Position numbers and translations under genes: made by a program. A stretch of DNA of 62,938 nt, filler included, from Aduncisulcus paluster (taxonomy: Eukaryota): NCBI GenBank assembly GCA_024181965.1. It is 6 parts of 6 records of this genome, joined end to end, with 100 filler letters (N's around TTAATTAATTAA, not from the genome) between each part and the next. Parts side by side here need not be neighbours in the genome. Positions count along the whole stretch, not along the records: positions 1 to 9,586 come from BQXS01011083.1; 5 more parts are not named here. One strand, written 5' to 3'. This document shows, in pieces, positions 131-52,401 of the stretch. Every line of letters begins with the position of its first letter. The stretch's first letter is position 1. The notes under the pieces are model-generated. The model was not told the DNA's origin, made no database searches, and was given only the letters and a program-made list of their open reading frames with translations.

Positions 131-408
131 TGTGTTCATGTTTGCATTGATGCTGTATGCGTCATGCGCCCATTTTGATCAGAATACCGTCTGTAGCCGG
201 TATATGCTACTATAAACGGGTCAAAGAGTGTTGTTTGCTTAAATAATAGTTGTTTGTTACGCCAAGAGAATGATCACGAAGAGGAGAACAGGGTTTCGGC
301 CATGAGATGCCCTCTTCAAGTGAGAGGAGGATGTGGTGACCATTCTCAGGGACATTCTAAAAATAGATTGGTTCGCTCGAGATCTGTTTATTAATAAATT
401 GGACCGCA

Positions 409-3103
409 TTATAGTTTAGTTTGGCCACACTAAAAACAAAACAAAACAAAACAAAAAACAAAAAAAAAATTAAATAGTTCAAAAAATAAAAAATAAAAAT
501 AAAATAACAGAAAATAGTAAGCAAACATACAGCTTCATGCCACATTTTTGAAGCGAGAACTTCAGTCGATTGCCGAGCAATAATTTCTTCAGCCGTTTCA
601 TTTCGAGTAAAAGCAAGAGATTTAACGGAAAAATCAAATCTATCCTGTTTAGATTTCCCTTCTATCTCACATAAAACAACATCAGGGAGGTCAATCGGGA
701 GAAAGAACCAAGAATTAATCGCCAGGTCAGGAAATTCATACTTGATCGATTGAATAATTCCTCTTGACGAAGAGAAGGTAAAGATAAGCTGGATTGGGGG
801 ATTAAAAGAGGAAGAAGACGTTAATTCGGAAAGAGAACTAGATATAGCTTTGGGCGTACAACAGATATAGGCTCCTTTGATATCGGAAGGAGGAGAGAAA
901 GGGATTGAAATAGAAGTGAATTTCCCTGCTGTTTTTTCTCCTTTTATCATTTTTTGAGCTTGTGAACTCTGGGTATATCCCCTTGAACCTTCCACATATC
1001 TTTCATTTTTTGCCATAATCCTTTCAAATGCAGGATTGATAATACTTGGAGCATCTCGAGGGATTGGAATACACGAATAATCTCCATTTTGAATAAACTC
1101 GGGTTTTCTCACATAAATATGTCTTTTGAGGAATATAAGAGAGTAAAGCCTAAAATATGGGCTATTCTTCCTCTTTTTCTCCCACATTCCTTTCCCTTGA
1201 ATCTCACACAAAATTACATTCGACAAATCAATAGGAAGGAAGTGCCATTCATATTCATATTTAAGTTCTGTGAATTCATACCTCTTTGAAATCTTTATTC
1301 CATCAGAAAGAGTAAAAGTGAAGAGCAGAGAAGGGATCATATCATTCTTATTTATACAAATGTAAGCACATTTAAAATTGGAAGGAGATGATTCTAGTGT
1401 AGAGAGGAAAGGGATGGAAAGATGAGATAAACGGACATAATCTTCCCCCTTCAACATTTTTAGTGCTCTTGAACTCTGGTCATAATGCTTCGATTCTTTT
1501 TTACAGCTACTATTGATTCCAAATACCCTGTCATATCGGGGCTTGATGACTGCTGAATCATCACGAGGAATGGGAATAAAGGAAACATCTCCAGGATTCA
1601 TGAAAGTGGTGTTTAAAACTGACTAAAGATTGCCCAAATCAAGAAAAAATGGAATTAATGAAAATAATATTATTAAAAACAATACTATCCATAAAATGTT
1701 TGAAAAAAATAAAACAAAATTAAAATAAAATAAACATACAGTTTCAGCCCAATGAGTTTCATACACATGGCGAATATGGGATTCTTCGATTGTTTCTTCT
1801 CGGACAAAATGAAGGCATTCAATTTCAAATATATGGCTATCCTTCTCTTTCCACGTTCCTTTTCCTTCAATTTCACACAAATTAACACTTATTAAATCAA
1901 TAGGAAGGAAGTACCACTCATATTCACGTTTAGGTTCAGTGAATTCATACCAATTAGATGTTTTTTTACCATCACAATCAGTGAAAGTGAAGAGGAGTTG
2001 AGGTGAACTGGAATGTTTGCGAATACAGATATAAGCGCCATAAATTGGACAAGGTGATGGGAAAGGGATAGAAAGATGGGATAAGGATACGAACCAGTCG
2101 CCTTTCAACATACTTTGCGCTTCTGAACTCTGATCACATTTTTCAAGGTCTTTACGATATAAATCATCAGTTTCCTTGATAGCCTTCACCATATCATATG
2201 CAGGGCAAACAATTGTTGGATCATCATGAAAAATCGGAGGATCATATCTATTTCCCTCGGTCACAAACACAGCCTTCATAAGTGTGGCTTCAGACGAACA
2301 AAGTTTCCCAAGATATGATCTTTCTTTGGACTTACAAGGAGTTGTTTCCTCGGAATATTCCATACCTCGAATGAAAACAAGGGAATTGATAATAAAACCC
2401 TTTCCTTCATTTTTAATGATCTCAATATAAAAACTCGAAATATCAGGGAGTTTGATTGGAAGAAAATACCAATTAGACCTATGATGAGGGTTTGATTTGG
2501 CCTTTGAAAAATTAAATATCTTCGTGGTTTTCATTCCTGAAGAAGAGGTGAAAACGAAGGTAAGAAGAGGTGGAAAAGTGTCTTCAAAGAGAATATATGC
2601 TCCTTTTGAGGATGATAACGAAGGAAAATAGTGTTGTCTGGATTCAAAGTTTTCAGTGTGGCTTGAAGGCTCACTTTCAAGGATCTTTGGAATTGATTTG
2701 GCACTGTCAAATTTAATTAAACTGAATTCAGCAGAAATAATTGAGGGATCATCTTGAGGGATAGGAATATGATGATAAGGTCCAGAAATTCCTTCTAGTG
2801 AAATCAGTTTGCCCCCAAGGATAAAAGTTCTTTGCTTAGGAAATTAGAATCAGATTTATGTATTAATTTAAAAGGAGTTAAATTTTAATAAAATAATTGA
2901 CAAAATAAATGATTGAAAGATCATTATGAGAAATGAAAGTTATAAGGAATAAAATAAGTGCATGTACTACATACAGAGATTGAACAACAAGAATTTAAAC
3001 GTGAAAATGTGGATTTTATATCTTCTCTCCCCTCATCTCGGACAAGAGAGCCTTCTGAAACTCTAGATGTTGTTGGCGCCTCTTTTGAATCAATTGAAGG
3101 CAT
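409..3103 (-). CDS. Spliced gene with four ~170-aa repeat modules (lineage-specific family; DOC/APC10-like fold inferred)
   Basis: Exons 3103-2975, 2834-1740, 1622-531. Phase-0 GTATGT..AG introns at 2974-2835 and 1739-1623 join the ORFs in frame (CCSIS|QRTF; HWAET|SVLNTTFMNPGD). A third donor lies at 530, but the last exon is uncertain (acceptor 430 gives a stop at 409; an alternative is at 357). Each module reads IPIPxDxP...SHLSIPF...GAYIC...YEF...WxFLPIDL..VxLCEIxGK...SLVF. Confidence 0.8.
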
Positions 3104-3638: not shown

Positions 3639-6600
3639 TTAAATAATCTTACCAATTTCATTGCACCCCTTTTTAAGGAGATGCTTGGGAGTTGTGTAAA
3701 TTAGCATAAACACCATGGAATTCAGAAATCCAAAGTTATCTCCGCCCATAATAATGACCACGTAAAGGTATAACAGTGAAAACGCTATGAGAGAGAACAA
3801 TAGAGCGATTGAAAATGAAGAGAAGGAGGTGGATCGATTTGTTATGGCGATTTCTTGACCAACGAGAAGCTCGGAGAATCTATCGGACATCATTTCCATC
3901 GATTCGTACTGCAAATATAATTGATGCAGTTGGAAAGTGTCGTCAGAGTTACTGAAAATGTCAATTTGTCCATCGGTTCCGAACAAATCCAACGAAAACT
4001 CACCAACATATTCAGTAATGAAATCGGAAATCAACAAATCAAATGGAGAATTTCTAATGCTGTTTTGAAGCTTTTTAGCGACTTGGATTTTCTTCATCCA
4101 TTGAGAGCTGAATAATTGCATCGAGTTCTTGAACAAAAGCGATTTGAGTGTTTTGTTCGAACCCAGGGATAAAGAACGCCAATCTATGAGTATATCTCTC
4201 ATTTCACTGTCGAGCAGAGGCATCAGAAGATTTGATTCTGGAATGTCAGCATGGGAAATGCCAACCATATTTGTGCCAACACTCATTGAAATATAACGTT
4301 CAGTTTGTACAATGAACCTAAACGATTGGACGTCATGAAGCAGATTGGAGGCTACAATGTAAGTGTATANNNNNNNNNNNNNNNNNNNNATCGAGTTCTT
4401 GAACAAAAGCGATTTGAGTGTTTTGTTCGAACCCAGGGATAAAGAACGCCAATCTATGAGTATATCTCTCATTTCACTGTCGAGCAGAGGCATCAGAAGA
4501 TTTGATTCTGGAATGTCAGCATGGGAAATGCCAACCATATTTGTGCCAACACTCATTGAAATATAACGTTCAGTTTGTACAATGAACCTAAACGATTGGA
4601 CGTCATGAAGCAGATTGGAGGCTACAATGTAAGTGTATAGGATAATGGAAACAATAAGGAATGAAATAGCTATGAAAAACACGAACGAACATCGCTTGAC
4701 TTTATCGATGAATGGAATGGCAGATGGAGATATGTGAGATATCGGGAACTGGTCCTCTTTTTCATCGATGCTACTGTATACATCATACAATTCATGCACT
4801 AAACTGTTAGCGTAATGATCAACACGATCAATAAAAGCCGATCCTTGCACCAAATCGTCCTTATCTTCACCGTGCGACTGATGCTGTTCCTGCTGATATC
4901 TCTTCTTAAATCTGAATCTATTGCTTGTCGGAACAAGAGCCTTGTCATCTCCTTCAGCGAAAGTTACTTGGTATGTTTTGCTGTTTCTTCTCATGACTTT
5001 TGGTCCAAGGGAAGGAAGATGGATGGCGAACAACTCTTTCCAAAAATCAATGCAAGAACTCACAGCCAACTTAACCTGTGAAATCGATACGCTAAAGGAA
5101 AAGATCAAAAAGATTGAGAGACAAAAGAAGAAAGCCACGATAATCCAAAGAATAAACTTAATGTATGAAGATTCTTGGATGGAAAAATACTCGCTGAAAA
5201 TGAAATTCTTAAGAACAGTCATTGAATCTCGAATATTCGTTGAAATATACTCGTTATATTCTATCAATGTCTCAGCAACAGCTCCAGCATAGTTCTGAAT
5301 GGTATTGGAAGCTCCGAATAGCTCCCCAAATTCATCACCAACGTGGGCCCACCAACTTACACAATATTCGTATATCCACTCATCGGAATCTTCAAGGTAA
5401 TAGTATGTTGAAAAATATGAGATAAACTTATTTGAGGAACAATCGGCAACATCGCTATAGTTTTCACTTTCACAGATAGTTGTTAATGTCAGATAAACCG
5501 AATATCCAACACAGAATAAATTCTCATCAATGGTTTCACCAATTAAGTAAGCACTTTCACCAGAAAGGCCAACGAAAGGGATTTCTTTCATGTTATCTGC
5601 ATGCTCAATTGCATCAAGGTAATTAGCAAAGATATCGCCAACAACCGAAGCATTGGTTTCTGCAAATAGTTTCTTTATCAGGTAAGAGGAAGTATATTCT
5701 GAGGAGAGGTCAATTATTCGAGAATCAGCCTCCAAATCTCGAATAACCGAATATAGAACATCAATGGTTCCAGATAAATATGTAGTCATCAAATTAGTTA
5801 GTTTCATGGAAGATTCTTGGAAAATGAGAATTGCAGTGATGTTTTCCATTAAAGTTTCTTCCTTGAGGAACATAAAAACCTGAAGAGTACACATTATACT
5901 CACAAATCCAAAAATAGTCACAGCAGCAAATACATGTTTGGTGGAATTGAATTTGCTTGGGAACTGGAAGAATATCCCGTCAGCATTGAAACTCCGACGA
6001 ACGATTTCAGTTTCATCAGATGTGCCGTGTAACAATGAAAATGGACTAGAAAGTTTCTGTCGATTGCTTAAAGTCGAAGCCGAATCACTATCAACATTTC
6101 CTTTTTCTCCATTTTGTTGATCTTTTTCTTTGCCATCTTCTTGACTCAAGAGCATTGAGTTACCTTTAACACGTTTTCTCAGCATTCTGTAATACATTCG
6201 AGCTAATCGAAGTGAATTCTGAGTCAAATAAGTCACTCTGTTCATGAGAATAAATAGTAAAAACATCACAACAAAGACGATAAAGAAAGGAAGAAGAGAG
6301 AGAGCAAAGTAATGCCTTCTCCAATTATTTTCATATTGTAAATGCTCAGTGATTCGGTGCTGTTCATGTGAAATAATTGTAAACATGTTGATAGAGGAAT
6401 GGGAAAACAATCTAGAATATATTGTGGATGAATTAAAAGCCGTCGAAATGCTGGTAAGTTGATCAAGATCGGGATCAGACAAGGAATCAGAGGATGAATC
6501 GAAATAATCGGCAAGAATACTGTATAAATAATCATTCTCGATTTCATCTGAGCATGACAATGGCCAGAATACTTCCTCAAATATCTGGGAGATCGATTCC

Positions 6601-9586
6601 ATGTTATAATCACTTGATCCATTAACCAAATCAAGAAATACCTGAACAGAATCAACAGAAACATTCAAAATATTGTAAATTACACTCATATCTTGACGAA
6701 TAGCACTGATAATGGATGAAAATTTGGGAATACTTTCGTTTCCTCCAAGAATGCTTAGCGATAGAGTCTTATCCATATTGGTTAAAGTGTCCTCGATTTC
6801 ATCATATCTACTCTGAATCGTTGTCAATATCCCCTCCATTGAAGCTAGTGTATCCTCAGTGGGATTGCTTTCGTAGATGGTTGCAAGGGTATTGTATGTT
6901 TGCATTTCGCCAAGAATCGGGACGAGCGCAACTCGAAGACTTGACATCACAAGACTAAAGATGTTCATGTATTGAAGTTGGTCAATCAAATCAAACACTG
7001 GGGTGTAAGAAGAGTCAGCCAAATTCATAGAACAAATGTGAGCAGTGCCTTCTCCGAGTTGGGTCTCTAATTGTGTGTGAGCATGGGAAAAATTATATTC
7101 ACTAATCGAGAATCCCGACACTGGTGTAGCGATACTAAAAATAGGCGAGCGATGGCACCGAAGTTTGATTCGTTCGATTTCTGCATCATAATGGTATGGC
7201 TCCCGAGGTAATAATGCATCCAACGTGTCGATAATTCCATGCTTAGAGTATAAATATATGCTTAAGACAATTCCAATTGTAGCAATAAAGAACACTGTCA
7301 GTAAAATCATGAGTAAGATGATACAGTTTCCAATGTTAAAGGTTTCATCAGTGATGGAACCGATTCCTCTTTTTTCTTGCGGTCTCAATCTGGTGGCCAT
7401 TGTACTCAAAATATTCTTGTATCGACCATCACTCACATTCACACTTCTCACGACTTCCCGTTGGCCAGATATCATCAATTTGAGCATCCTTGTTTTCTCA
7501 TTTTCAGTATACCGACGTAAAACATTTGTATTCGTGTTTCGATGGTTGTTTGTACTCCTTCCAACGATATTAAACCGCTTTAAAGCTTCATGATCAGACT
7601 CAGGGGAAGAAGAGGATTCATCGTCATCATTATCATCATTTTCCATGGAGAGGAACGTGTGTTGATCGGCAAAAACAGCCTTATCCTCCTGCGATACGTT
7701 AGCAAACACGGCTTCAGATCCATCTTGATTTCCCCATCCATGGAATATTCCTCCTTCTTGCTCTTGAGTATTTTCTTCGGTGAGATCAACTGAATCCCCC
7801 CAGTCAATGGAACTCAGGTCTTTCTTAATCCTGTTCCGGCTTTGACTCTTGCTCCTTGACCTGCTGCGGCTGCGTGACCGACTACGAGTAGCTCCATTGC
7901 CATAACCACTCGATGCATCATCGTACGAGTAAAGACCTGCCCTACTGGATGATTCTGTACTCTTGCTGGATTCGTTACTCTTGCTGGACTCACTGCAATC
8001 GGGAAGAACCTTGAATTTCCCATTGACATCCTTGGAGGACCTGGTTTTCTGTGGAGACTGGCGTTTCTTGAGTTCAGATGCAGAGTAGAACATGGCGACA
8101 GACGAATGCGTCGACGAGGATGTGTCAGAACACGTCGAATTATGGTGATCCCGAGCAGAATCAACAATAATCTCATGGGTTTGAGGCGAAAGATCACCAG
8201 GGTCTTGTCCAGTAGTTGAGAAGAGAGAGAAAACACCGTCTGAAAAGGGGACCGATAGATTAGGTGACAACGGGACAGCCTTTGGGGTGTGACTCAAAGA
8301 AACAGATGATTGAGGAGCAGTTAAAATCACACATTCAGGTCCCCCACTGTCGTCTTTCAAAACAATATCTTCAATGTTCTTTGAGCATGGAGAAGAGGCT
8401 GATGGTTCCTCAACGATGGAATCCATTATGAGCGGATTAATAGTTGAGGTCATAGCGCTCACTGATCGGGTGATATCATTCTCAATAGGAACACTGCTCT
8501 CGCCCTCACTCGAAAGATCATCATTGCTTCTCTCTCTTTTCCTTCGATGGGCTGATTCTTTCTGTCGGCTACTGTATGCATATTTACCTACTTGTTTCTT
8601 GGATGAGGACGAATGCGATGATGAATGTTTCCTTCCTTCCTGCTCTTCCTGTTTGGTTTCTAATTTGGGACTCAATATCTCCTCCTCTTCTTCTTTGTCA
8701 GAGGGGACAATTACTTGTGGTTCCTCTGAAGAAGATGATTCTGTGGGAACAGACAAATCATTCTCGTCGACAACAGTCTCCATTTTGGAATGCAATGAAG
8801 GAATGAACCCATTTGGAGGGATTCCTGGGGTCATTACTCTCTTGGGTCCAGCTCCAGCACTAACTCTTAATCCTCCTTCTTTGACTGGATTTAAAAGAGG
8901 GTATTTTCTTGGGGAAGACATCTTTTGAAGGCTTGATGCAAGGATACTGGCCGACAAGGTGCATGAAGTGCCAGTTCTCACGGATGATTCGGGTCCAAAT
9001 CCTTCATTGTCAACCTTACTCAGCGTTTCGGTCTGTGACGGCACAGGAGACAATGTCTTACGTCGTGAATAGAGCTTTGAAGAGTCGTCCTCATCTACGA
9101 TTTGACCCTCTGTCTCTCTCTCATCTGGGTGTAAACCGACAATTTCTAGTAAATTATTTGAGGAACAAAACTCAACGGCAGTATTAATGTGTTCACGAGT
9201 GCAAGTATCAAGGGCTCCATCATCAGAAAGATCATCGTCAGACTCAGAAATGTGTGTTAAAGCTGTAGGAGGTTCTTTGGATTTAATTGTCAAATAGCTA
9301 CGTGCACTGGTGCTAACATTCTTCTTATTCTTACAAGGATTCTTCTCTCGTCTCAAAGCCTCAGACTCTTTCGTGGGATCTTGACGAGCTGAGATGCTCT
9401 GTGGAGTTTTATGAGTGATTGCTGAACGTAACGAAGTCTTTTTCATACCACTAGAAGTCGTTTCCACAAGGAGATTGAGGTTTTTGGGTGAGGAAACAAT
9501 CCCACGATGGGATGCAGCAGCAGAGTGAGACCTTGAAGGAGACTGGGGAGTTGAGCTTGATGAGGAATGCCCAGCAGAGATGATAG
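3639..9586 (-). CDS. Large multi-pass membrane protein, 5'-partial (Ser-rich N-terminus, three TM-loop-TM units)
   Basis: The frame is open to the contig end. Six hydrophobic segments alternate with long loops. About 90 aa are duplicated artefactually around the N gap at 4370-4389. Confidence 0.8.
4120..4639. other. Scaffolding artefact: 250-bp exact duplication flanking a 20-N gap
   Basis: 4120-4369 is identical to 4390-4639, separated by 20 N. Confidence 0.9.
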
Positions 9587-9686
9587 NNNNNNNNNNNNNN
9601 NNNNNNNNNNNNNNNNNNNNNNNNNNNNNNTTAATTAATTAANNNNNNNNNNNNNNNNNNNNNNNNNNNNNNNNNNNNNNNNNNNN
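9587..9686. other. Artificial contig linker
   Basis: N44-TTAATTAATTAA-N44, with stops in all six frames. Confidence 0.99.
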
Positions 9687-13479: not shown

Positions 13480-13744
13480 GATCTCGCGATTTAAGGTTTA
13501 CAGAGATAACACGAGCTGCAGAATGTCATCGTAAGTCAAAAACAAAAAGTTCGTACACGAAACCATTCGGTCAGGGTCGGTATTCTCCTCAAAAAATGGA
13601 TAAAAAGACTTAGATCCTGGTAATCTCGCTATTTCATTGCATTGTGATTCTTTTCGATTCTAATAAATGGCATTGGGACTTAATGACTACAGTTGTCAAA
13701 CTTTGACAACATGCGCAATTCTAGCCTCTTATTTCGTTGTTAAG

Positions 13745-14956
13745 ATGCCAATTACAATCTCATTTTGTTCGGATTTCGGTCTTGAAGACTATTATGTTGG
13801 CCAAGTTAAGCATGTTATTCGTCGAATTAGCCCTTCGACTTCTGTCATAGATCTCACCCATCAAGTCCCTCGTCAAAACGTTATCCTTGGGTCTTTGTTT
13901 GTTGCCAATACACTCCCATATGTGGGACCAAATACCATCCATTTGTCTATTATTGATCCATCTGTCGGAACCGAAAGGAAAGGAATTCTTGCAACCTTGC
14001 CAAACCCCTTTAAAGGAGTTATTATTGCTCCTGACAATGGATTTCTTCAGTATGTATGTCACTTTGCCAAGATAGATATCAATGACGTTCAAATTTATTT
14101 CATTCGTTCCACTCCAACTCCATTCGTTATCAGGCCTTTATTAGCTGAAGTGGGATGTACATTTGATGGTAGAGATCTTTTTGGTCCGGCAGCTGGGGAA
14201 TTGGCTCGCTTTATGATTGAAATTGGGGAGGAAAAACTTTCTGCTGCTGAAGATCGAATCTACCCAGATCCGATTGTAGATGAGCTTAGCGAAATGAAAA
14301 AGGAGGAAAAATTGGAAAATGAATCTGATATATTATCGCCTGATCCCATTGTTGTGACTCCATCCGGATCAGAAATGAAAAAAGTTGAGTCGAAATCTCT
14401 TGGGGAGATAACACCTGGTAAGATACACAAAAGGGGGGCTTTTTATCTCTTGCATGAAAATGACAAAGCCTCTATTTCCCTTGGATCCCTTGTATTGGAT
14501 CGAGCTGAAGAATCGGATTTAACCAAACCAGATATCGATTTGACGAGTAAGCAACTTTATTACATTTCTCGTACAATTGATAGTGATGTCCATTATGTCC
14601 ATGCATTTGTGTTACATGTTGACCATTATGGGAATTGTATTATTTCTGCTCCATATTCATGTTTTAAGAAGGCTGCCGAAGCTGATACAACATGTACCGT
14701 TGAAATTGGTGGAGAACTTCTTTCTGGAGATGAATATCAGGGAGCGAAGTTCTCAACAGCTGCAACCATTACTAAAGGTTATGCTTGTGTTGAAGTTGGG
14801 GAGTGGTGTATTACTGGAAATAGTTATGGACTTATTGAACTTGCAATTAACCAAGGGAATGCTCTTGAGGAATTGTCAGAGGAATATGAACCTGAAATTG
14901 ACGCTTCTTCGCTATTTATGACTTCAGTATTCATCACTTGGAATGAGGGTGAATAA
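13745..14956 (+). CDS. SAM hydroxide adenosyltransferase / SAM-dependent halogenase family protein (DUF62)
   Basis: Motifs SDFGLEDYYVG, IDLTHQVP, IIDPSVGTER, IAPDNG, TFDGRDLFGPAA, HVDHYGN and NSYGLIELAINQGNA. Intronless. The start at MPITISF matches the family N-terminus; an upstream ATG exists at 13667. Confidence 0.93.
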   Translation: MPITISFCSDFGLEDYYVGQVKHVIRRISPSTSVIDLTHQVPRQNVILGSLFVANTLPYVGPNTIHLSIIDPSVGTERKGILATLPNPFKGVIIAPDNGFLQYVCHFAKIDINDVQIYFIRSTPTPFVIRPLLAEVGCTFDGRDLFGPAAGELARFMIEIGEEKLSAAEDRIYPDPIVDELSEMKKEEKLENESDILSPDPIVVTPSGSEMKKVESKSLGEITPGKIHKRGAFYLLHENDKASISLGSLVLDRAEESDLTKPDIDLTSKQLYYISRTIDSDVHYVHAFVLHVDHYGNCIISAPYSCFKKAAEADTTCTVEIGGELLSGDEYQGAKFSTAATITKGYACVEVGEWCITGNSYGLIELAINQGNALEELSEEYEPEIDASSLFMTSVFITWNEGE

Positions 14957-23530: not shown

Positions 23531-23783
23531 TATCATAATATTAACAATGTGGGATACAAGAGTTTGAGAATCCAAGTGATATTAGCATGTAGCTAAGCTA
23601 CAGAACTACTGTAAGCAAGTTTCATTTTTAGATTTAGAGATTTTTAGAATATAAAGCATATATTAAATATTGAAACTTATTTCATTAAAGAAATAAAGAA
23701 ATATAACTGATTGTTTTTTCTTCCTGTCATCCGATTTTCAGATTTGATTTTTTGTGCTATTTCATGAAATAACATTATATATT

Positions 23784-24527
23784 ATGGATAAAATAGATGA
23801 TTGGCAGGCTCAGGTTCTTGCAGTTAAAAGAAGAGAACAATTTATTGTAAAACAATTGGAATTGATGAGTTCCGTTCATTCTAGTGTATGTAGGATAGTT
23901 GGGGATTCTTATATATCTGGAAAATCTTTATCTGCAATAGAAATATCAAATATTAAAAGAGATATTGATGAATTGGCGAGATCTATTGATGAAATGCAGA
24001 GTTTGTTTGAAGATCAAATTCAAACCTTTAGACAACTCCGAGAACTTGCCATGGATGATTCTGCGAGACAAAGTTCTTATGGCGTGTTGATGACTCAAAA
24101 TTCAACTTTACGTACTGAATGGGATCACTCACAAGAACAATTTCGTGCAACAATCTCCCGTGTGAAAATATTATTTCCGAGAAGCTCCATTTCGACTGAT
24201 ATTCTTCATGGCGAATCACGTGTTGTTGGTGCTCGGAGCGATGATATGAAAAGATCCCATGAACATGCTGAAGGAAGACAACTTGATATAGCTAGAAGGC
24301 AAGTTGAAGATATCATTGGGATCGCATCACATACACATTCGGCATTGCTTGAGGATGATGATGAAATTGATCGGCTTCGAGATGGAGTTGGGAAAATCCA
24401 TCTTGATATCTCAAAAAACAAGAATGCTGTATTTATGATCGGGAAACTGAAAGTTGATTTAAATGTTATTGGGGCGATTATCTTAGGAATAATTATTGCG
24501 TTAATAATAATATTGATCCTATTTTAG
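23784..24527 (+). CDS. Tail-anchored Qb-SNARE (GOS1/GOSR1-like)
   Basis: Helical N-terminal bundle, SNARE-like heptads (LDIARRQVEDIIGIASHTHSAL) and a single C-terminal TM segment. Confidence 0.7.
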   Translation: MDKIDDWQAQVLAVKRREQFIVKQLELMSSVHSSVCRIVGDSYISGKSLSAIEISNIKRDIDELARSIDEMQSLFEDQIQTFRQLRELAMDDSARQSSYGVLMTQNSTLRTEWDHSQEQFRATISRVKILFPRSSISTDILHGESRVVGARSDDMKRSHEHAEGRQLDIARRQVEDIIGIASHTHSALLEDDDEIDRLRDGVGKIHLDISKNKNAVFMIGKLKVDLNVIGAIILGIIIALIIILILF

Positions 24528-24534
24528 GCCTTTA

Positions 24535-24699
24535 GGGAAAGGAACGTGGTGGAGAAGAATAGCAAAAATGTTTCGACATTTTCTTGCTTTTACAATGCTA
24601 GAGGAAAGTGAAATAATCGATCGATTATCTTCATATTCCCAAGATATAACTGAATTATATGTATCAAAGGATGAAAAAGAGAAAGAAAGTGAAGAATAA
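24535..24699 (+). pseudogene. 5'-truncated relic of the repeat-module gene family
   Basis: Reads GKGTW...FTMLEESEIIDRLSSYSQDITELYVSKDEKEKESEE*, nearly identical to the end of the 37578-38303 gene. It has no start and carries indels after GKGTW. Confidence 0.85.
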
Positions 24700-24835
24700 T
24701 CGCCGAAAATTATTGAAGACATATCCCTGGTAAAAAACATTCAATCATTCTGATTTTTTGTTTTGACTCAATACATACAATTTATCCTATATTTTTCAAT
24801 ATTTCTTCGTTTTTAATGAATTTTGAAAAATGTAA

Positions 24836-37577: not shown

Positions 37578-38303
37578 GGACGTGATTGGCGGGAAAAGGA
37601 TAGTTTTAAAATAGAATCTCTCGTTTTCTTTCGAAAAGAAACCCTTGAAGAAGCTTTTGCTCGTGAAGCTAGAAATAGAGAGAAACTCTGGTCTGAAGCC
37701 ATTTCTGTGAAACCAAAGATTATAAAAGATGAAGATGTAGAATTTGAACCTGTTGGTTCCGATTTTCCTGATTTTGATTGTTCAACTGTAATTAAGCCTT
37801 CATTTTCAATGGTTAAGGGATCTAATTTAACGCGAATTATGGACTCTAAGCGGTATGTTTCTTCCCAAAAGTTGTTAGAAAAAGGATGTAGGTTTGAGCG
37901 AGCAACCGAGTATGAATCGGTTTTATTATCCCATCTTTCTATTCCTTTTTCGTCTCCTAGCCATGTGAAAGGTGCTTATATCTGTGTGGGAATGTATCAC
38001 GTTCCAAGGTCACTTCTCTTCATTTTCTCTGATTCTGATGGAAAGAGAGTGTGCAAGAAATATGAATTTGTTGAACCAGAAAATCTTTTTATTTGGTTCT
38101 TCCTTCCTATTAATTTGTTGAATGTTGTTTTATGTGAAATTGAAGGGAAAGGGACATGGTCGGAGAGGAATAGTAGATGTTTCGAAATCTATTCCCTTGT
38201 TTTTACAATGCCAGATGAAAGTGAAATAATCGATCGATATTCCCAAGATATTACTGAATTATCTGTATCAAAGGATGAAAAAGAAAAAGAAAGTGAAGAA
38301 TGA
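37578..38303 (+). CDS. Repeat-module family gene, 5'-partial
   Basis: Frame open from the contig start (FKIESLVFFRKET...KLWSEA), then a full module SHLSIPFSSPSHVKGAYICV...KKYEF...WFFLPINLLNVVLCEIEGKGTW. Confidence 0.85.
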   Translation, partial: GRDWREKDSFKIESLVFFRKETLEEAFAREARNREKLWSEAISVKPKIIKDEDVEFEPVGSDFPDFDCSTVIKPSFSMVKGSNLTRIMDSKRYVSSQKLLEKGCRFERATEYESVLLSHLSIPFSSPSHVKGAYICVGMYHVPRSLLFIFSDSDGKRVCKKYEFVEPENLFIWFFLPINLLNVVLCEIEGKGTWSERNSRCFEIYSLVFTMPDESEIIDRYSQDITELSVSKDEKEKESEE

Positions 38304-38447
38304 TCATCGAAAATTGTTAAAGAAATATCTCAAAAGAGAAAACACTTTTCATTGTTGCATTTTCCATTGATTTTGACTCAATACATGCAATTTATCCCCC
38401 ATTTTCTAGGATATTTCTTCGTTTTCTATGGATTTTGAAAAGCGGAA

Positions 38448-51126: not shown

Positions 51127-52401
51127 ATGAGTTCATCCACAGATGCTGTTATTCAAAATGTGGAACCTGAGTTTGTTCATGAAGGATATTACGATTGTTG
51201 TCCAATTCCTGGAGATTCCCCCAATATTAAGAGTGCAGAATTTCCAACTATCAGAGCCATTAATGAAACCAAGGAAAAAGGTGATGAAGAGTACGATCAG
51301 AGTTCTAATGCACAAGATATGATGAAAGGAGGGTTTAATTATGGATTTTTTACTCATATCACTATTCCTTTCTCTTTATCTTCCCCAATGAAAGGGGCTT
51401 ATATCTGTATATCAAGCTCTTGTTCACCTCCATCACACCTTATTTTCACTCTCACATCTTCAAAGGGTGATAAAACGTCAAAGAAATACGAATTTCCTGG
51501 CTTTAGACGTAAACATTGGTATTTCCTTCCTGTTGATCTCCCTGATGTTGTTTTGTGTGAGATTACAGGGAAAGGAAGAGTGGAAGAGTATTTTAAAATC
51601 GAATCCCTTGTTTTCATTAGAGATGAAACTCCTGAAGAAATCAAATCGCGTGAAGCCAGAGAGAAATTATTGTCTGAAGCTCCAGTTGTGAAACCAGAGT
51701 TTGTTAAGGAAGGAGATTATGCATCTGAAGGTAGAGATTCTATTCCCATTCCACGAGATGATCCAAAGCTTGTAGCTCCTTCGTTTTCAATTGTTAAGTG
51801 CAAGAATGATTCGGTGAGTAAGGAATCTAAGGAGTATGATAAGAGTTCAGATGCACAAAAAATGTTAAAAGGGGAAGATAGTGTTGAATTATCCCATCTT
51901 TCCATTCCTTTCCCATCACCTAGTCCTATGAAAGGTGCTTATATCTGTGTGGATGATTTTAATAGTTCACCCTCTCTTCTCTTCATTTTCACTGATTGTG
52001 ATGGTAAGAAGACATCCAAGAAGTATGAATTCACAGAACCTGAACATAAATATGAATGGCACTTCCTTCCTATTGATTTGGATAATGTTGTATTGTGTGA
52101 GATTGAAGGGAAAGGAACGTGGTGGGTGTGTAATAAGAATAGTCGATGTTTCTGCATCTACTCCCTTGTATTTACTATGCCAGAGGAAACCATTGCAGCT
52201 GAACGATTATCGTTACTTCCATGGAAACTTGGAAACCTTTCAGAACAGAGTTCTAACTTAGTGTTTGACAAACAACCTAAAATAATTTTAGTAAAATTGG
52301 AAAAAGAAGGATATCTTCAGAACATAAGTAAAACATTAAGTAAAACAAATAGCGACCTATCCCGGGGGTCCGCTATCGGTTGGCTTAGTTGGGTGATGTG
52401 A
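51127..52401 (+). CDS. Repeat-module family gene (two modules), C-terminus extended by an insertion
   Basis: Two full modules. After ERLSLLPWK the frame runs 57 codons into inserted DNA. A probable 5'-UTR intron lies at 51009-51102 (GTATGT..TTTAG). Confidence 0.88.
   Translation: MSSSTDAVIQNVEPEFVHEGYYDCCPIPGDSPNIKSAEFPTIRAINETKEKGDEEYDQSSNAQDMMKGGFNYGFFTHITIPFSLSSPMKGAYICISSSCSPPSHLIFTLTSSKGDKTSKKYEFPGFRRKHWYFLPVDLPDVVLCEITGKGRVEEYFKIESLVFIRDETPEEIKSREAREKLLSEAPVVKPEFVKEGDYASEGRDSIPIPRDDPKLVAPSFSIVKCKNDSVSKESKEYDKSSDAQKMLKGEDSVELSHLSIPFPSPSPMKGAYICVDDFNSSPSLLFIFTDCDGKKTSKKYEFTEPEHKYEWHFLPIDLDNVVLCEIEGKGTWWVCNKNSRCFCIYSLVFTMPEETIAAERLSLLPWKLGNLSEQSSNLVFDKQPKIILVKLEKEGYLQNISKTLSKTNSDLSRGSAIGWLSWVM

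What the first reader, a model, noticed from the sequence alone, without database searches (positions are those of the whole stretch)
409..3103. Expanded family of cytosolic tandem ~170-aa modules with a DOC/APC10-like pattern and variable loops
Seen: seven complete modules at three loci (409-3103, 37578-38303, 51127-52401) plus a relic at 24535, on four of the six contigs, which implies a very large family. There are two subtypes, A (PPxxLIFTxxSSxG...LPDV) and B (SPxLLFTFTDxDG...GKGTW), arranged A-B-B-A, (A)-B and A-B. No signal peptide or TM is visible. Putative strands are conserved while the loops after GAYIC, YEF and GK vary in sequence and length. Inference: the order HxSIPF...KGAYIC...SPxxL...EFxEP..W.FLPI...CEI...SR.F.I.SLVF parallels the DOC/APC10 jelly-roll (HxIxIxF..K.L.I...SY.P..I...EL.EP.GW..IPL...QI...GRDT.IR.I). 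DOC domains are substrate-recognition modules in APC/C, HERC2 and CUL7/9. This could be an undescribed diversified intracellular recognition repertoire.
Basis: partly seen in the sequence, partly recalled or inferred. Interest (0 to 1): 0.75.

Follow-up and report, generated by a model that had tools for sequence, protein, structure and literature searches.

The report
Expanded DOC-like jelly-roll module family
A free-living anaerobic flagellate carries hundreds of genes built from paired beta-sandwich modules that look like the APC10/DOC recognition domain, have hypervariable loops and are often fused to protein kinases, so they look like an undescribed intracellular binding-module family.

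Summary
The window is Aduncisulcus paluster (metamonad, Fornicata). At 210/409-3103 (- strand) lies a spliced four-module gene (A'-B-B-A); two of its three introns are joined out in contigs of a public run. Further copies lie at 37578-38303 and 51127-52401, and a truncated relic at 24534-24795. No module matches any Pfam family or any PDB sequence. AlphaFold models (pLDDT 93 and 78.5) show each module as a galactose-binding-domain-like jelly roll. Yeast APC10/Doc1 is the best single-domain structural match for module B (Z 13.2 and 11.9), about one Z unit above or tied with CBM32, muskelin, IFT25 and PITH. In hand are 263 distinct proteins carrying 632 module matches; every one that bears a name is from A. 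paluster. The A-B pair is the basic unit (134 of 263). Variation is packed into about 40 positions in a few loop patches rich in Tyr, Asn, Trp and Asp. Of 132 relatives scanned, 36 carry a C-terminal protein kinase, usually with intact catalytic motifs; two carry thioredoxin; none carries an E3-ligase domain. Best reading: cytosolic binding modules that target or regulate kinases. Homology to DOC is unproven and function is untested. This is a new sequence family and architecture in a known fold.

The parts
2975..3103 (-). Exon 1 of the four-module gene (ATG at 3103; 43 aa, MPSIDSKEAPTT...CCSIS)
   Evidence: DNA reading. A contig of run X1 joins 2834 to 2975. The product is identical to P0150.
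2835..2974 (-). Intron 1 (140 nt, GTATGT...AG on the - strand)
   Evidence: Joint 2834->2975 skips 140 nt, with ends CT..AC on the + strand (table 5). DNA reading.
1740..2834 (-). Exon 2 (365 aa): module m1 (divergent A type, about 2283-2810) and module m2 (B type, about 1740-2282)
   Evidence: HMM matches. AlphaFold model m0d919a8eb0e1: m2 pLDDT above 90, m1 sandwich core 80-94, m1 N-terminal part below 50.
1623..1739 (-). Intron 2 (117 nt, GTATGT...TTTAG), in frame and ending in TAG
   Evidence: DNA reading. Contig record 3 of X1 covers 1742-1994 and continues at 1622-1229 (table 8).
531..1622 (-). Exon 3 (364 aa): module m3 (B type, about 1113-1622) and module m4 (A type, about 531-1112)
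   Evidence: HMM matches. Identical to P0150 up to residue 772.
210..530 (-). Intron 3 and the last exon, unresolved. The database model splices to 356 and ends at the stop at 210-212 (48 aa tail).
   Evidence: No contig bridges this joint.
37578..38303 (+). Second locus: C-terminal end of an A module cut by the contig gap, then a complete B module and an acidic tail
51127..52401 (+). Third locus: intron-less canonical A-B gene (A about 51151-51684, B about 51685-52227) with a 57-aa C-terminal extension; it equals P0020 (424 aa)
   Evidence: AlphaFold model m70824c35f963: pLDDT 93.1, pTM 0.87.
24534..24795 (+). Relic: the 3' end of a B module plus tail and 3' flank, with no upstream module
   Evidence: 78% nucleotide identity to 38144-38405 over 276 columns, E 2.6e-57. 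Translation. The full-module HMM finds nothing there at E up to 10.

Best explanation
The locus encodes a spliced, transcribed four-module member of a family that, so far as named records show, is specific to Aduncisulcus paluster. The family is very large.

Shown or predicted:
- Each module of about 175 aa is a cytosolic beta-sandwich of the galactose-binding-domain-like (DOC/APC10-like) jelly-roll class (predicted with high confidence). It has an N-terminal extension and a C-terminal linker helix.
- The evolutionary unit is an A-B pair.
- Sequence variation among paralogs is packed into a few short patches rich in Tyr, Asn, Trp and Asp: the N-terminal GDxxC segment, the segment before the first core strand, and the loops after GAYIC, YEF and GKG. 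The core is nearly invariant.
- Many members carry the A-B array directly upstream of a Ser/Thr-type protein kinase domain with intact catalytic motifs. A few carry a WCGPC thioredoxin.

Inferred:
- The modules are ligand-binding domains, most likely protein-binding.
- The variable loops lie at one end of the sandwich and set the specificity.
- In the fused forms they bring a protein-modifying enzyme to its target or gate its activity.
- Stand-alone forms, such as the three genes in this window, act as adaptors, regulators or competitors of the same interactions.
- Some members are held at membranes by N-terminal acylation or C-terminal prenylation.
For: Gene and transcript:
- The exon model is identical to P0150 over residues 1-772.
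- Contigs of run X1 join across intron 1 (skip of 140 nt, GT..AG on the - strand) and across intron 2.
- One divergent member, P0241, comes from a transcriptome set.

Fold:
- AlphaFold pLDDT 93.1, pTM 0.87 for the 51127 A-B protein; 78.5 for m1+m2 of the focal gene.
- Foldseek top hits are CBM32 pairs (E 9e-10), allantoicase and neuropilin b1b2.
- VIA: Doc1 1gqp_A Z 13.2/145 aligned and 11.9/150; HECTD3, CUL7 and HERC2 DOC domains Z 10.8-11.3.

Family size and range:
- 153 hits at E up to 1e-3 in the 200-637 aa band. 119 of the 120 listed rows are named A. paluster; the other row is the window's own protein.
- 164 representatives of 50% clusters in 1.84 billion proteins.
- 263 distinct sequences carry 632 module matches.
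- The three divergent members whose names I could obtain are also from this organism.

Unit: architecture AB in 134 of 263.

Variation:
- Column entropy 0.64 bits in strands against 1.35 in coil.
- 40 positions at 2.3 bits or more lie in patches, enriched for Y 3.9x, N 3.4x, W 3.4x and D 2.0x.

Fusions:
- Pkinase in 15 of 30, 9 of 34 and 12 of 68 relatives scanned, 36 of 132 in all.
- 33 of 36 have HRDxKxxN and 33 of 36 have GxGxxG.
- By my reading against those Pfam coordinates, the module next to the kinase is usually B type.
- Thioredoxin in 2 of 68.

Cytosolic placement:
- 245 of 263 have no hydrophobic 19-mer.
- 22 of 239 Met-initiated members start MG, many as MGxxxS/T with Cys at position 3 or 4. 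Three end in CaaX-like boxes. That these are acylation and prenylation motifs is recalled knowledge.
Against: - No ligand, partner or activity is known for any member.
- A shared fold shows no function. The same fold binds sugars (CBM32, discoidin), degrons (DOC) or partner subunits (IFT25).
- That the variable loops sit at one end of the sandwich is inferred from strand order only. Model coordinates could not be inspected.
- Loops vary more than strands in most families. No dN/dS test was possible, because the coding DNA of close paralogs was not available.
- Long database proteins (up to 3335 aa) may be merged gene models, so the PARP, LRR and ankyrin fusions, and some kinase fusions, may be annotation artefacts.
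- The three genes in this window carry no kinase.
- The kind of run X1 is only guessed to be RNA.
Confidence: 0.5

Rival explanations
1. The modules are lectins, that is cytosolic or phagosome-associated carbohydrate-binding modules like CBM32 or discoidin domains. They would be diversified to bind glycans, for instance those of bacterial prey or of the cell's own glycoconjugates.
For: CBM32 and F5/8 type C domains fill most of the structural hit lists at Z 10-11.6. They are also the only named leads from the ESM Atlas (scores 0.76-0.79). Aromatic and Asn/Asp-rich variable loops also suit sugar binding.
Against: No Pfam CBM32 or F5_F8_type_C hit in 67 members at E up to 10. No signal peptide or membrane span in most members, and acylation or prenylation motifs in some, which puts them in the cytosol. 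The fusion partners are kinases and thioredoxin, not glycosidases. Atlas scores below 0.9 are leads only.
Confidence: 0.15
2. The modules are true, very divergent DOC domains. They would work as in APC10, HERC2, CUL7 and HECTD3, as substrate-recognition parts of ubiquitin ligases.
For: Doc1 is the top single-domain match for module B in two models (Z 13.2 and 11.9) and covers 145-150 residues, against about 115-130 for CBM32.
Against: No ANAPC10 profile match. About 10% identity in the structural alignments. Human APC10 is tied with CBM32 and muskelin. No cullin, HECT, RING, U-box or F-box domain in 132 relatives, apart from one sub-threshold LRR_FBXL18 line.
Confidence: 0.12
3. The proteins are structural or scaffold components, for example of the elaborate fornicate cytoskeleton or of flagellar transport (IFT25-like). 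The loop variation would be relaxed drift in a recently amplified gene family.
For: IFT25 scores Z 10.8-11.2. The copy number is very high, with 60-80% identity among canonical paralogs, which points to recent amplification. Truncated relics exist.
Against: The variation is confined to a few patches flanked by nearly invariant residues, and its Tyr/Trp/Asn/Asp bias is typical of binding surfaces. The recurrent fusion to apparently active kinases is not expected of a purely structural protein.
Confidence: 0.13
4. The family belongs to a selfish or mobile element, or is largely pseudogenic, and has no cellular function.
For: There are hundreds of dispersed copies, a truncated relic and apparent gene clusters. 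Several listed paralogs share the same longest-contig length, for example 41827, 32491 and 47250; that they share a contig is my inference.
Against: The frames are open and the cores conserved in 263 sequences. Introns are spliced. The neighbours are ordinary housekeeping genes: TFIIB, proteasome alpha subunit, TIP49, WD40. No transposase, integrase or capsid family appeared in any Pfam scan.
Confidence: 0.05

Closest known systems
DOC domain of APC10/Doc1 (Pfam ANAPC10, PF03256), also found in HERC2, CUL7, CUL9 and HECTD3
   Same: The same jelly-roll topology. It is the best single-domain structural match for module B (1gqp_A Z 13.2, rmsd 3.0, 145 aligned; Z 11.9, 150 aligned). It is a cytosolic module that recognises ligands through loops at one end of the sandwich (the last point is established knowledge, recalled).
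   Different: No profile-level sequence similarity. It occurs here in tandem A-B pairs, in hundreds of paralogs. It is linked to kinases and thioredoxin rather than to cullin or HECT ligases. It has hypervariable loops.
CBM32 / F5/8 type C (discoidin) carbohydrate-binding modules
   Same: The same fold class (Z 10-11.6). Tandem CBM32-1/CBM32-2 of ZmpB is the top two-domain match (Foldseek E 9e-10; Z 13.5 but rmsd 11.7). Binding in these modules is by variable loops at one end (recalled).
   Different: Those modules are secreted or extracellular and attached to glycosidases, proteases or receptors. The modules here have no signal peptide, no Pfam match and kinase partners. The mutual orientation of the two domains differs (rmsd 11.7-17).
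PITH domain of TXNL1 and PITHD1 (PF06201)
   Same: A galactose-binding-like jelly roll of the cytosol (1xpw/1tvg Z 10.0-10.9; TXNL1 chain 9e8o_u Z 9.3). Like TXNL1, two family members combine the jelly roll with an active-site thioredoxin (P0071, P0092).
   Different: The domain order is reversed: modules first and thioredoxin last. There is no PITH profile match. Thioredoxin fusions are rare (2 of 68).
Muskelin discoidin domain (substrate receptor of the CTLH E3 ligase)
   Same: A cytosolic discoidin-like jelly roll used for protein recognition (Z 10.0-11.7).
   Different: It is a single-copy conserved gene with LisH/CTLH/kelch context (recalled). None of these domains was found here.
Lineage-specific kinase expansions with repeated binding modules in other metamonads, for example the Giardia NEK kinases and ankyrin-repeat 21.1 proteins (recalled, not examined here)
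   Same: One protist lineage holds a very large set of cytosolic kinases and kinase-less relatives built on a repeated protein-binding module.
   Different: The binding module here is a jelly roll, not ankyrin repeats. The kinase subfamily was not determined (one search gave no PDB match). The variation is concentrated in loop patches.

Membership tests
DOC / APC10 (Pfam PF03256 ANAPC10) | Significant match to the family's sequence profile | tested here: not met
   0 families at E up to 1 for the two window ORFs. None of 67 members hits ANAPC10 at E up to 10. A family profile against all PDB sequences, which include APC10, HERC2, CUL7 and HECTD3 chains, gives 0 hits at E up to 10.
DOC / APC10 (Pfam PF03256 ANAPC10) | Beta-sandwich jelly roll that superposes on solved DOC domains | tested here: met
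   1gqp_A Z 13.2, rmsd 3.0, 145 aligned and Z 11.9, rmsd 3.2, 150 aligned. 1jhj Z 10.4-11.7. 9r6v_B 11.3, 7z8b_C 11.0, 7rgw_A 10.8. Other families of the same fold class lie within about one Z unit.
DOC / APC10 (Pfam PF03256 ANAPC10) | Occurrence in, or next to, ubiquitin-ligase machinery (cullin homology, HECT, APC/C subunit) | tested here: not met
   No cullin, HECT, RING or U-box family in 132 relatives scanned at E up to 1e-3 or 1e-4, nor in 22 other ORFs of the window.
DOC / APC10 (Pfam PF03256 ANAPC10) | Degron- or ligand-binding residues of the DOC loops | not testable with these tools
   No residue-level structural alignment or model coordinates were available, and no DOC sequences could be obtained for a profile-profile comparison.
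Galactose-binding domain-like fold (superfamily level) | Jelly-roll beta-sandwich of about 120-150 residues matching many members of the class | tested here: met
   58 of 48,161 representative chains score Z 8 or more, and the rows listed are CBM32, DOC, discoidin, IFT25, PITH, XRCC1-N and allantoicase. 282 Foldseek matches at E up to 1e-3.
CBM32 / F5_F8_type_C (PF18344, PF00754) | Match to the family profile | tested here: not met
   None of 67 members matches at E up to 10.
CBM32 / F5_F8_type_C (PF18344, PF00754) | Secreted or extracellular context; sugar- and Ca-binding site | tested here: inconclusive
   No signal-like N-terminus in most members (9 of 263 have a hydrophobic N-terminal stretch, some of them likely annotation artefacts). 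Binding-site residues were not testable.
PITH (PF06201) | Match to the family profile; thioredoxin-PITH architecture | tested here: not met
   No PITH hit. Thioredoxin is present in 2 of 68 but lies C-terminal to the modules. Fold similarity Z 9.3-10.9.

The most novel reading that the evidence does not exclude
A. paluster has evolved its own intracellular recognition repertoire. In this reading, hundreds of paired DOC-like jelly rolls carry loops under diversifying selection. Each would be tuned to a different protein or microbial ligand, from prey, symbionts or viruses. Some would be wired directly to kinases as cytosolic receptor kinases, and some held at membranes by lipid anchors. This would be an innate-sensing or self/non-self system built on a fold not known to serve that role.
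Probability: 0.2. Interest if true: 0.8.

Novelty: new variant of a known kind. Interest (0 to 1): 0.6.

Why it matters
The family may account for 1-2% of the predicted proteins of a free-living relative of Giardia: 263 distinct sequences against the 15,316 predicted proteins given in PMC9933649, which I read in full. It has no Pfam model and is not mentioned in the genome announcement. If the hypervariable loops are binding sites, the family would be a rare case of a diversified cytosolic recognition set in a protist. It would also be a new way of giving kinases their specificity. Even on the modest reading, it defines a new domain family that would improve the annotation of fornicate genomes. 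It also shows that the DOC/galactose-binding fold has been recruited into kinase signalling.

Tried and rejected
- Sequence searches for a known family found nothing useful: Pfam at E up to 1 and up to 10, and PDB sequences by phmmer and by profile. One search gave one chance hit at E 0.77.
- The ESM Atlas gave only low scores (best 0.83), so they are leads only; no structure search was possible there.
- The UniRef label 'NudC domain-containing protein' on P0004, P0007 and P0009 is rejected. These three proteins have no Pfam family at E up to 1e-4.
So there is no DNA-level genome-wide count, no names for most of the 164 representatives, and no coding sequences of close paralogs for dN/dS.
- The window's own copies are 37-60% identical at the protein level. 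That is too far apart for a meaningful dS, so I did not compute dN/dS.
- Two of the three homologous-protein runs returned only 1 and 2 rows. They served only to name three divergent members.
- Sequencing runs: no RNA holder is listed. The one run found (X1) is of guessed kind and is kept as contigs. Intron 3 and the last exon were not bridged, and 521-627 had no cover. I drew no conclusion from depth figures.
- phmmer of the kinase-bearing P0165 against PDB found nothing at 1e-5, so the kinase subfamily is not assigned.
- Earlier findings of this scan: nothing by place, by sequence or by words.
- Literature: three full-text searches, the whole text of PMC9933649 and passages of PMC11437800 contain no description of this family. 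Supplements were not consulted.
- A capsid or transposon origin is rejected for lack of any such Pfam family and because the neighbours are housekeeping genes.
Full report
**What the window is.** The window is AT-rich eukaryotic DNA in six pieces joined by paired 44-N runs. [quoted passage not shown] Other ORFs in the window are ordinary eukaryotic housekeeping genes: TFIIB, proteasome alpha subunit, TIP49/RuvBL and a WD40 protein. The genome announcement (PMC9933649, whole text read) reports 29.4 Mb, 25,863 contigs and 15,316 predicted proteins. It says nothing about this family.

**The observation.**
- The focal gene lies on the - strand. Exon 1 is 2975-3103 (43 aa). Intron 1 is 2835-2974. 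Exon 2 is 1740-2834 (modules m1 and m2). Intron 2 is 1623-1739. Exon 3 is 531-1622 (modules m3 and m4).
- All three introns start GTATGT, have a T-rich body and end in AG, and all are in phase 0. Intron 1 precedes the first module. Introns 2 and 3 each follow a two-module exon, so they lie exactly at module boundaries.
- The spliced product is 100% identical over residues 1-772 to the database protein P0150 (820 aa).
- Contigs of one public run join 2834 to 2975 (a skip of 140 nt with GT..AG ends on the - strand) and run from 1742 on to 1622. So the spliced form exists, although the run's kind is only guessed to be RNA.
- The 3' end is open.
- The locus at 51127-52401 is an intron-less A-B gene (P0020, 424 aa). 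The locus at 37578-38303 is cut at its 5' side by a contig gap.
- The relic at 24534-24795 is a true truncated copy: 78% nucleotide identity to 38144-38405, E 2.6e-57.

**Fold.**
- The A-B protein of the 51127 locus, aligned with 66 paralogs, gives an AlphaFold model with mean pLDDT 93.1 and pTM 0.87. It shows two beta-sandwiches (about residues 9-165 and 190-350). Each has an N-terminal hairpin, a short helix before the core and a long helix after it.
- Exon 2 of the focal gene gives pLDDT 78.5. Module m2 is above 90. The m1 core is at 80-94, but the N-terminal part of m1 and the m1-m2 linker are below 50.
- Foldseek and VIA-align place both domains in the galactose-binding-domain-like jelly-roll class.
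- Among single domains, yeast APC10/Doc1 (1gqp_A) comes first for module B in the second model: Z 13.2, rmsd 3.0, 145 of 180 residues. That is 1.3 above BF3416 and about 1.5 above muskelin, human APC10 and CBM32.
- DOC domains of HECTD3, CUL7 and HERC2 score 10.8-11.3 on module A. They are tied with IFT25, CBM32 and PITH.
- Sequence gives no help. There is no Pfam family for the window ORFs or for any of 67 members at E up to 10. A family profile finds no PDB chain at E up to 10.
- So the DOC likeness is real at the level of fold and is the best match, but homology is not shown.

**Size, range and architecture of the family.**
- The word-indexed search finds 153 proteins in the 200-637 aa band.
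- The exhaustive profile search of 1.84 billion cluster representatives finds 164 (110 at E up to 1e-30), some as long as 3335 aa with 8-11 matched stretches.
- The 263 sequences in hand are all distinct at 95% identity over 80% of the shorter sequence. They carry 632 module matches: 49 have one, 147 two, 31 three, 16 four and 20 five or more.
- Every sequence whose source name I could see is A. paluster. That includes three of the most divergent ones (P0264, P0247, and P0241 from a transcriptome set labelled Carplike_NY0171, the strain named in PMC9933649).
- I could not see names for the rest, so restriction to this species is likely but not proven.
- With separate A and B HMMs the commonest architecture is A-B (134 of 263). 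The focal gene is the only A-B-B-A in the set.

**Fused domains.**
- Pfam scans of 132 relatives found a protein kinase domain in 36: 15 of 30, 9 of 34 and 12 of 68.
- The kinase lies C-terminal to the modules in the compact models, for example P0165, P0166, P0167, P0182, P0072 and P0264.
- 33 of the 36 keep HRDxKxxN and 33 keep the glycine-rich loop.
- Two of 68 carry a C-terminal thioredoxin with a WCGPC site.
- Single cases of PARP, LRR, ankyrin plus NYD-SP28, and importin-beta repeats occur in very long models that may be merged genes.
- No ubiquitin-ligase domain was seen.

**Variation.**
- In the 67-sequence alignment the mean column entropy is 0.64 bits in strands, 1.11 in helices and 1.35 in coil.
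- Forty positions reach 2.3 bits or more, and most fall in short runs.
- In module A the runs are 21-23, 54-55, 70-74, 96-100 (after GAYIC), 127-129 (after YEF) and 152-159 (after GKG and in the last strand).
- In module B they are 198-201, 252-254, 276-279, 308, 331-336 and the alternate residues 341/343/345.
- These runs are flanked by nearly invariant residues.
- The hypervariable positions are enriched for Tyr (3.9x), Asn (3.4x), Trp (3.4x) and Asp (2.0x), and depleted of Pro, Val, Thr and Ile.
- The loops after GAYIC, YEF and GKG are separated by an even number of strand crossings. In an up-and-down sandwich they should therefore lie at the same end, which is where this fold class usually binds ligands. 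This step is my inference from the strand order. It was not measured on coordinates.

**Location in the cell.** There is no hydrophobic 19-mer in 245 of 263 sequences. Of the Met-initiated members, 22 of 239 begin MG, many as MGxxxS/T and some with Cys at position 3 or 4. Three end in CaaX-like boxes. From general knowledge these are N-myristoylation/palmitoylation and prenylation signals. They fit cytosolic proteins, some of them attached to membranes.

**Most likely mechanism.**
- Shown: a transcribed, spliced gene; a huge paralogous family; a DOC/galactose-binding-like fold; patchy hypervariability; recurrent fusion to seemingly active kinases.
- Inferred: the modules are binding domains whose variable loops set specificity. 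They deliver or gate a protein-modifying enzyme. The kinase-less A-B proteins, including the three genes in this window, act as adaptors or competitors.
- I put this at about 0.5. The rivals are lectin function (0.15), a structural role with drifting loops (0.13), true DOC homologs acting with ubiquitin ligases (0.12) and a selfish or decaying family (0.05).

**Novelty.** The fold is known. The sequence family, the A-B pair as a unit, its scale, the loop hypervariability and the link to kinases are not described in Pfam. Nor are they described in the papers I could search. I rate it a new variant of a known kind.

Noticed in passing
window 4100-4660 (gap at 4370-4389), inside the 1999-aa ORF 3639-9638 (-): The 20-N gap is flanked on both sides by the same stretch of about 80 aa (YTYIVASNLLHDVQSFRF...LLFKNS). 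This looks like a scaffolding duplication, not a real repeat.
   Followed up: no
window 1601-1739: Intron 2 of the focal gene is in frame and ends in TAG, and an ATG lies at 1601 just inside exon 3. If the intron were retained, the locus would give two separate two-module proteins (A'-B and B-A). Each large exon holds exactly two modules, as if two genes had been fused.
   Followed up: partly
family members outside the window (for example P0215, P0201, P0088, P0241, P0251, P0171): A subset starts with MGxxxS/T, some with Cys at position 3 or 4, or ends in CaaX-like boxes. This suggests lipid-anchored, membrane-associated members.
   Followed up: partly
window 13667-14953 (+): An ORF with both domains of SAM hydroxide adenosyltransferase (PF01887 E 2e-34, PF20257 E 4e-13). 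From recall this family is mainly prokaryotic, so this may be a lateral acquisition.
   Followed up: no
window 23748-24527 (+) and 24534-24795: The relic begins a few bases after the end of a 259-aa ORF with a hydrophobic C-terminal tail (…IGAIILGIIIALIIILILF*), perhaps a tail-anchored protein. The relic may lie in its 3' untranslated region.
   Followed up: no
window 52228-52401 (+): Most canonical A-B paralogs end at ...LSLLPWK, but the copy in the window reads on for 57 more codons to the stop at 52399-52401.
   Followed up: no
P0004, P0007, P0009 (relatives): UniRef calls them 'NudC domain-containing protein', but they have no Pfam family at E up to 1e-4. The name seems to be a propagated mislabel.
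   Followed up: yes
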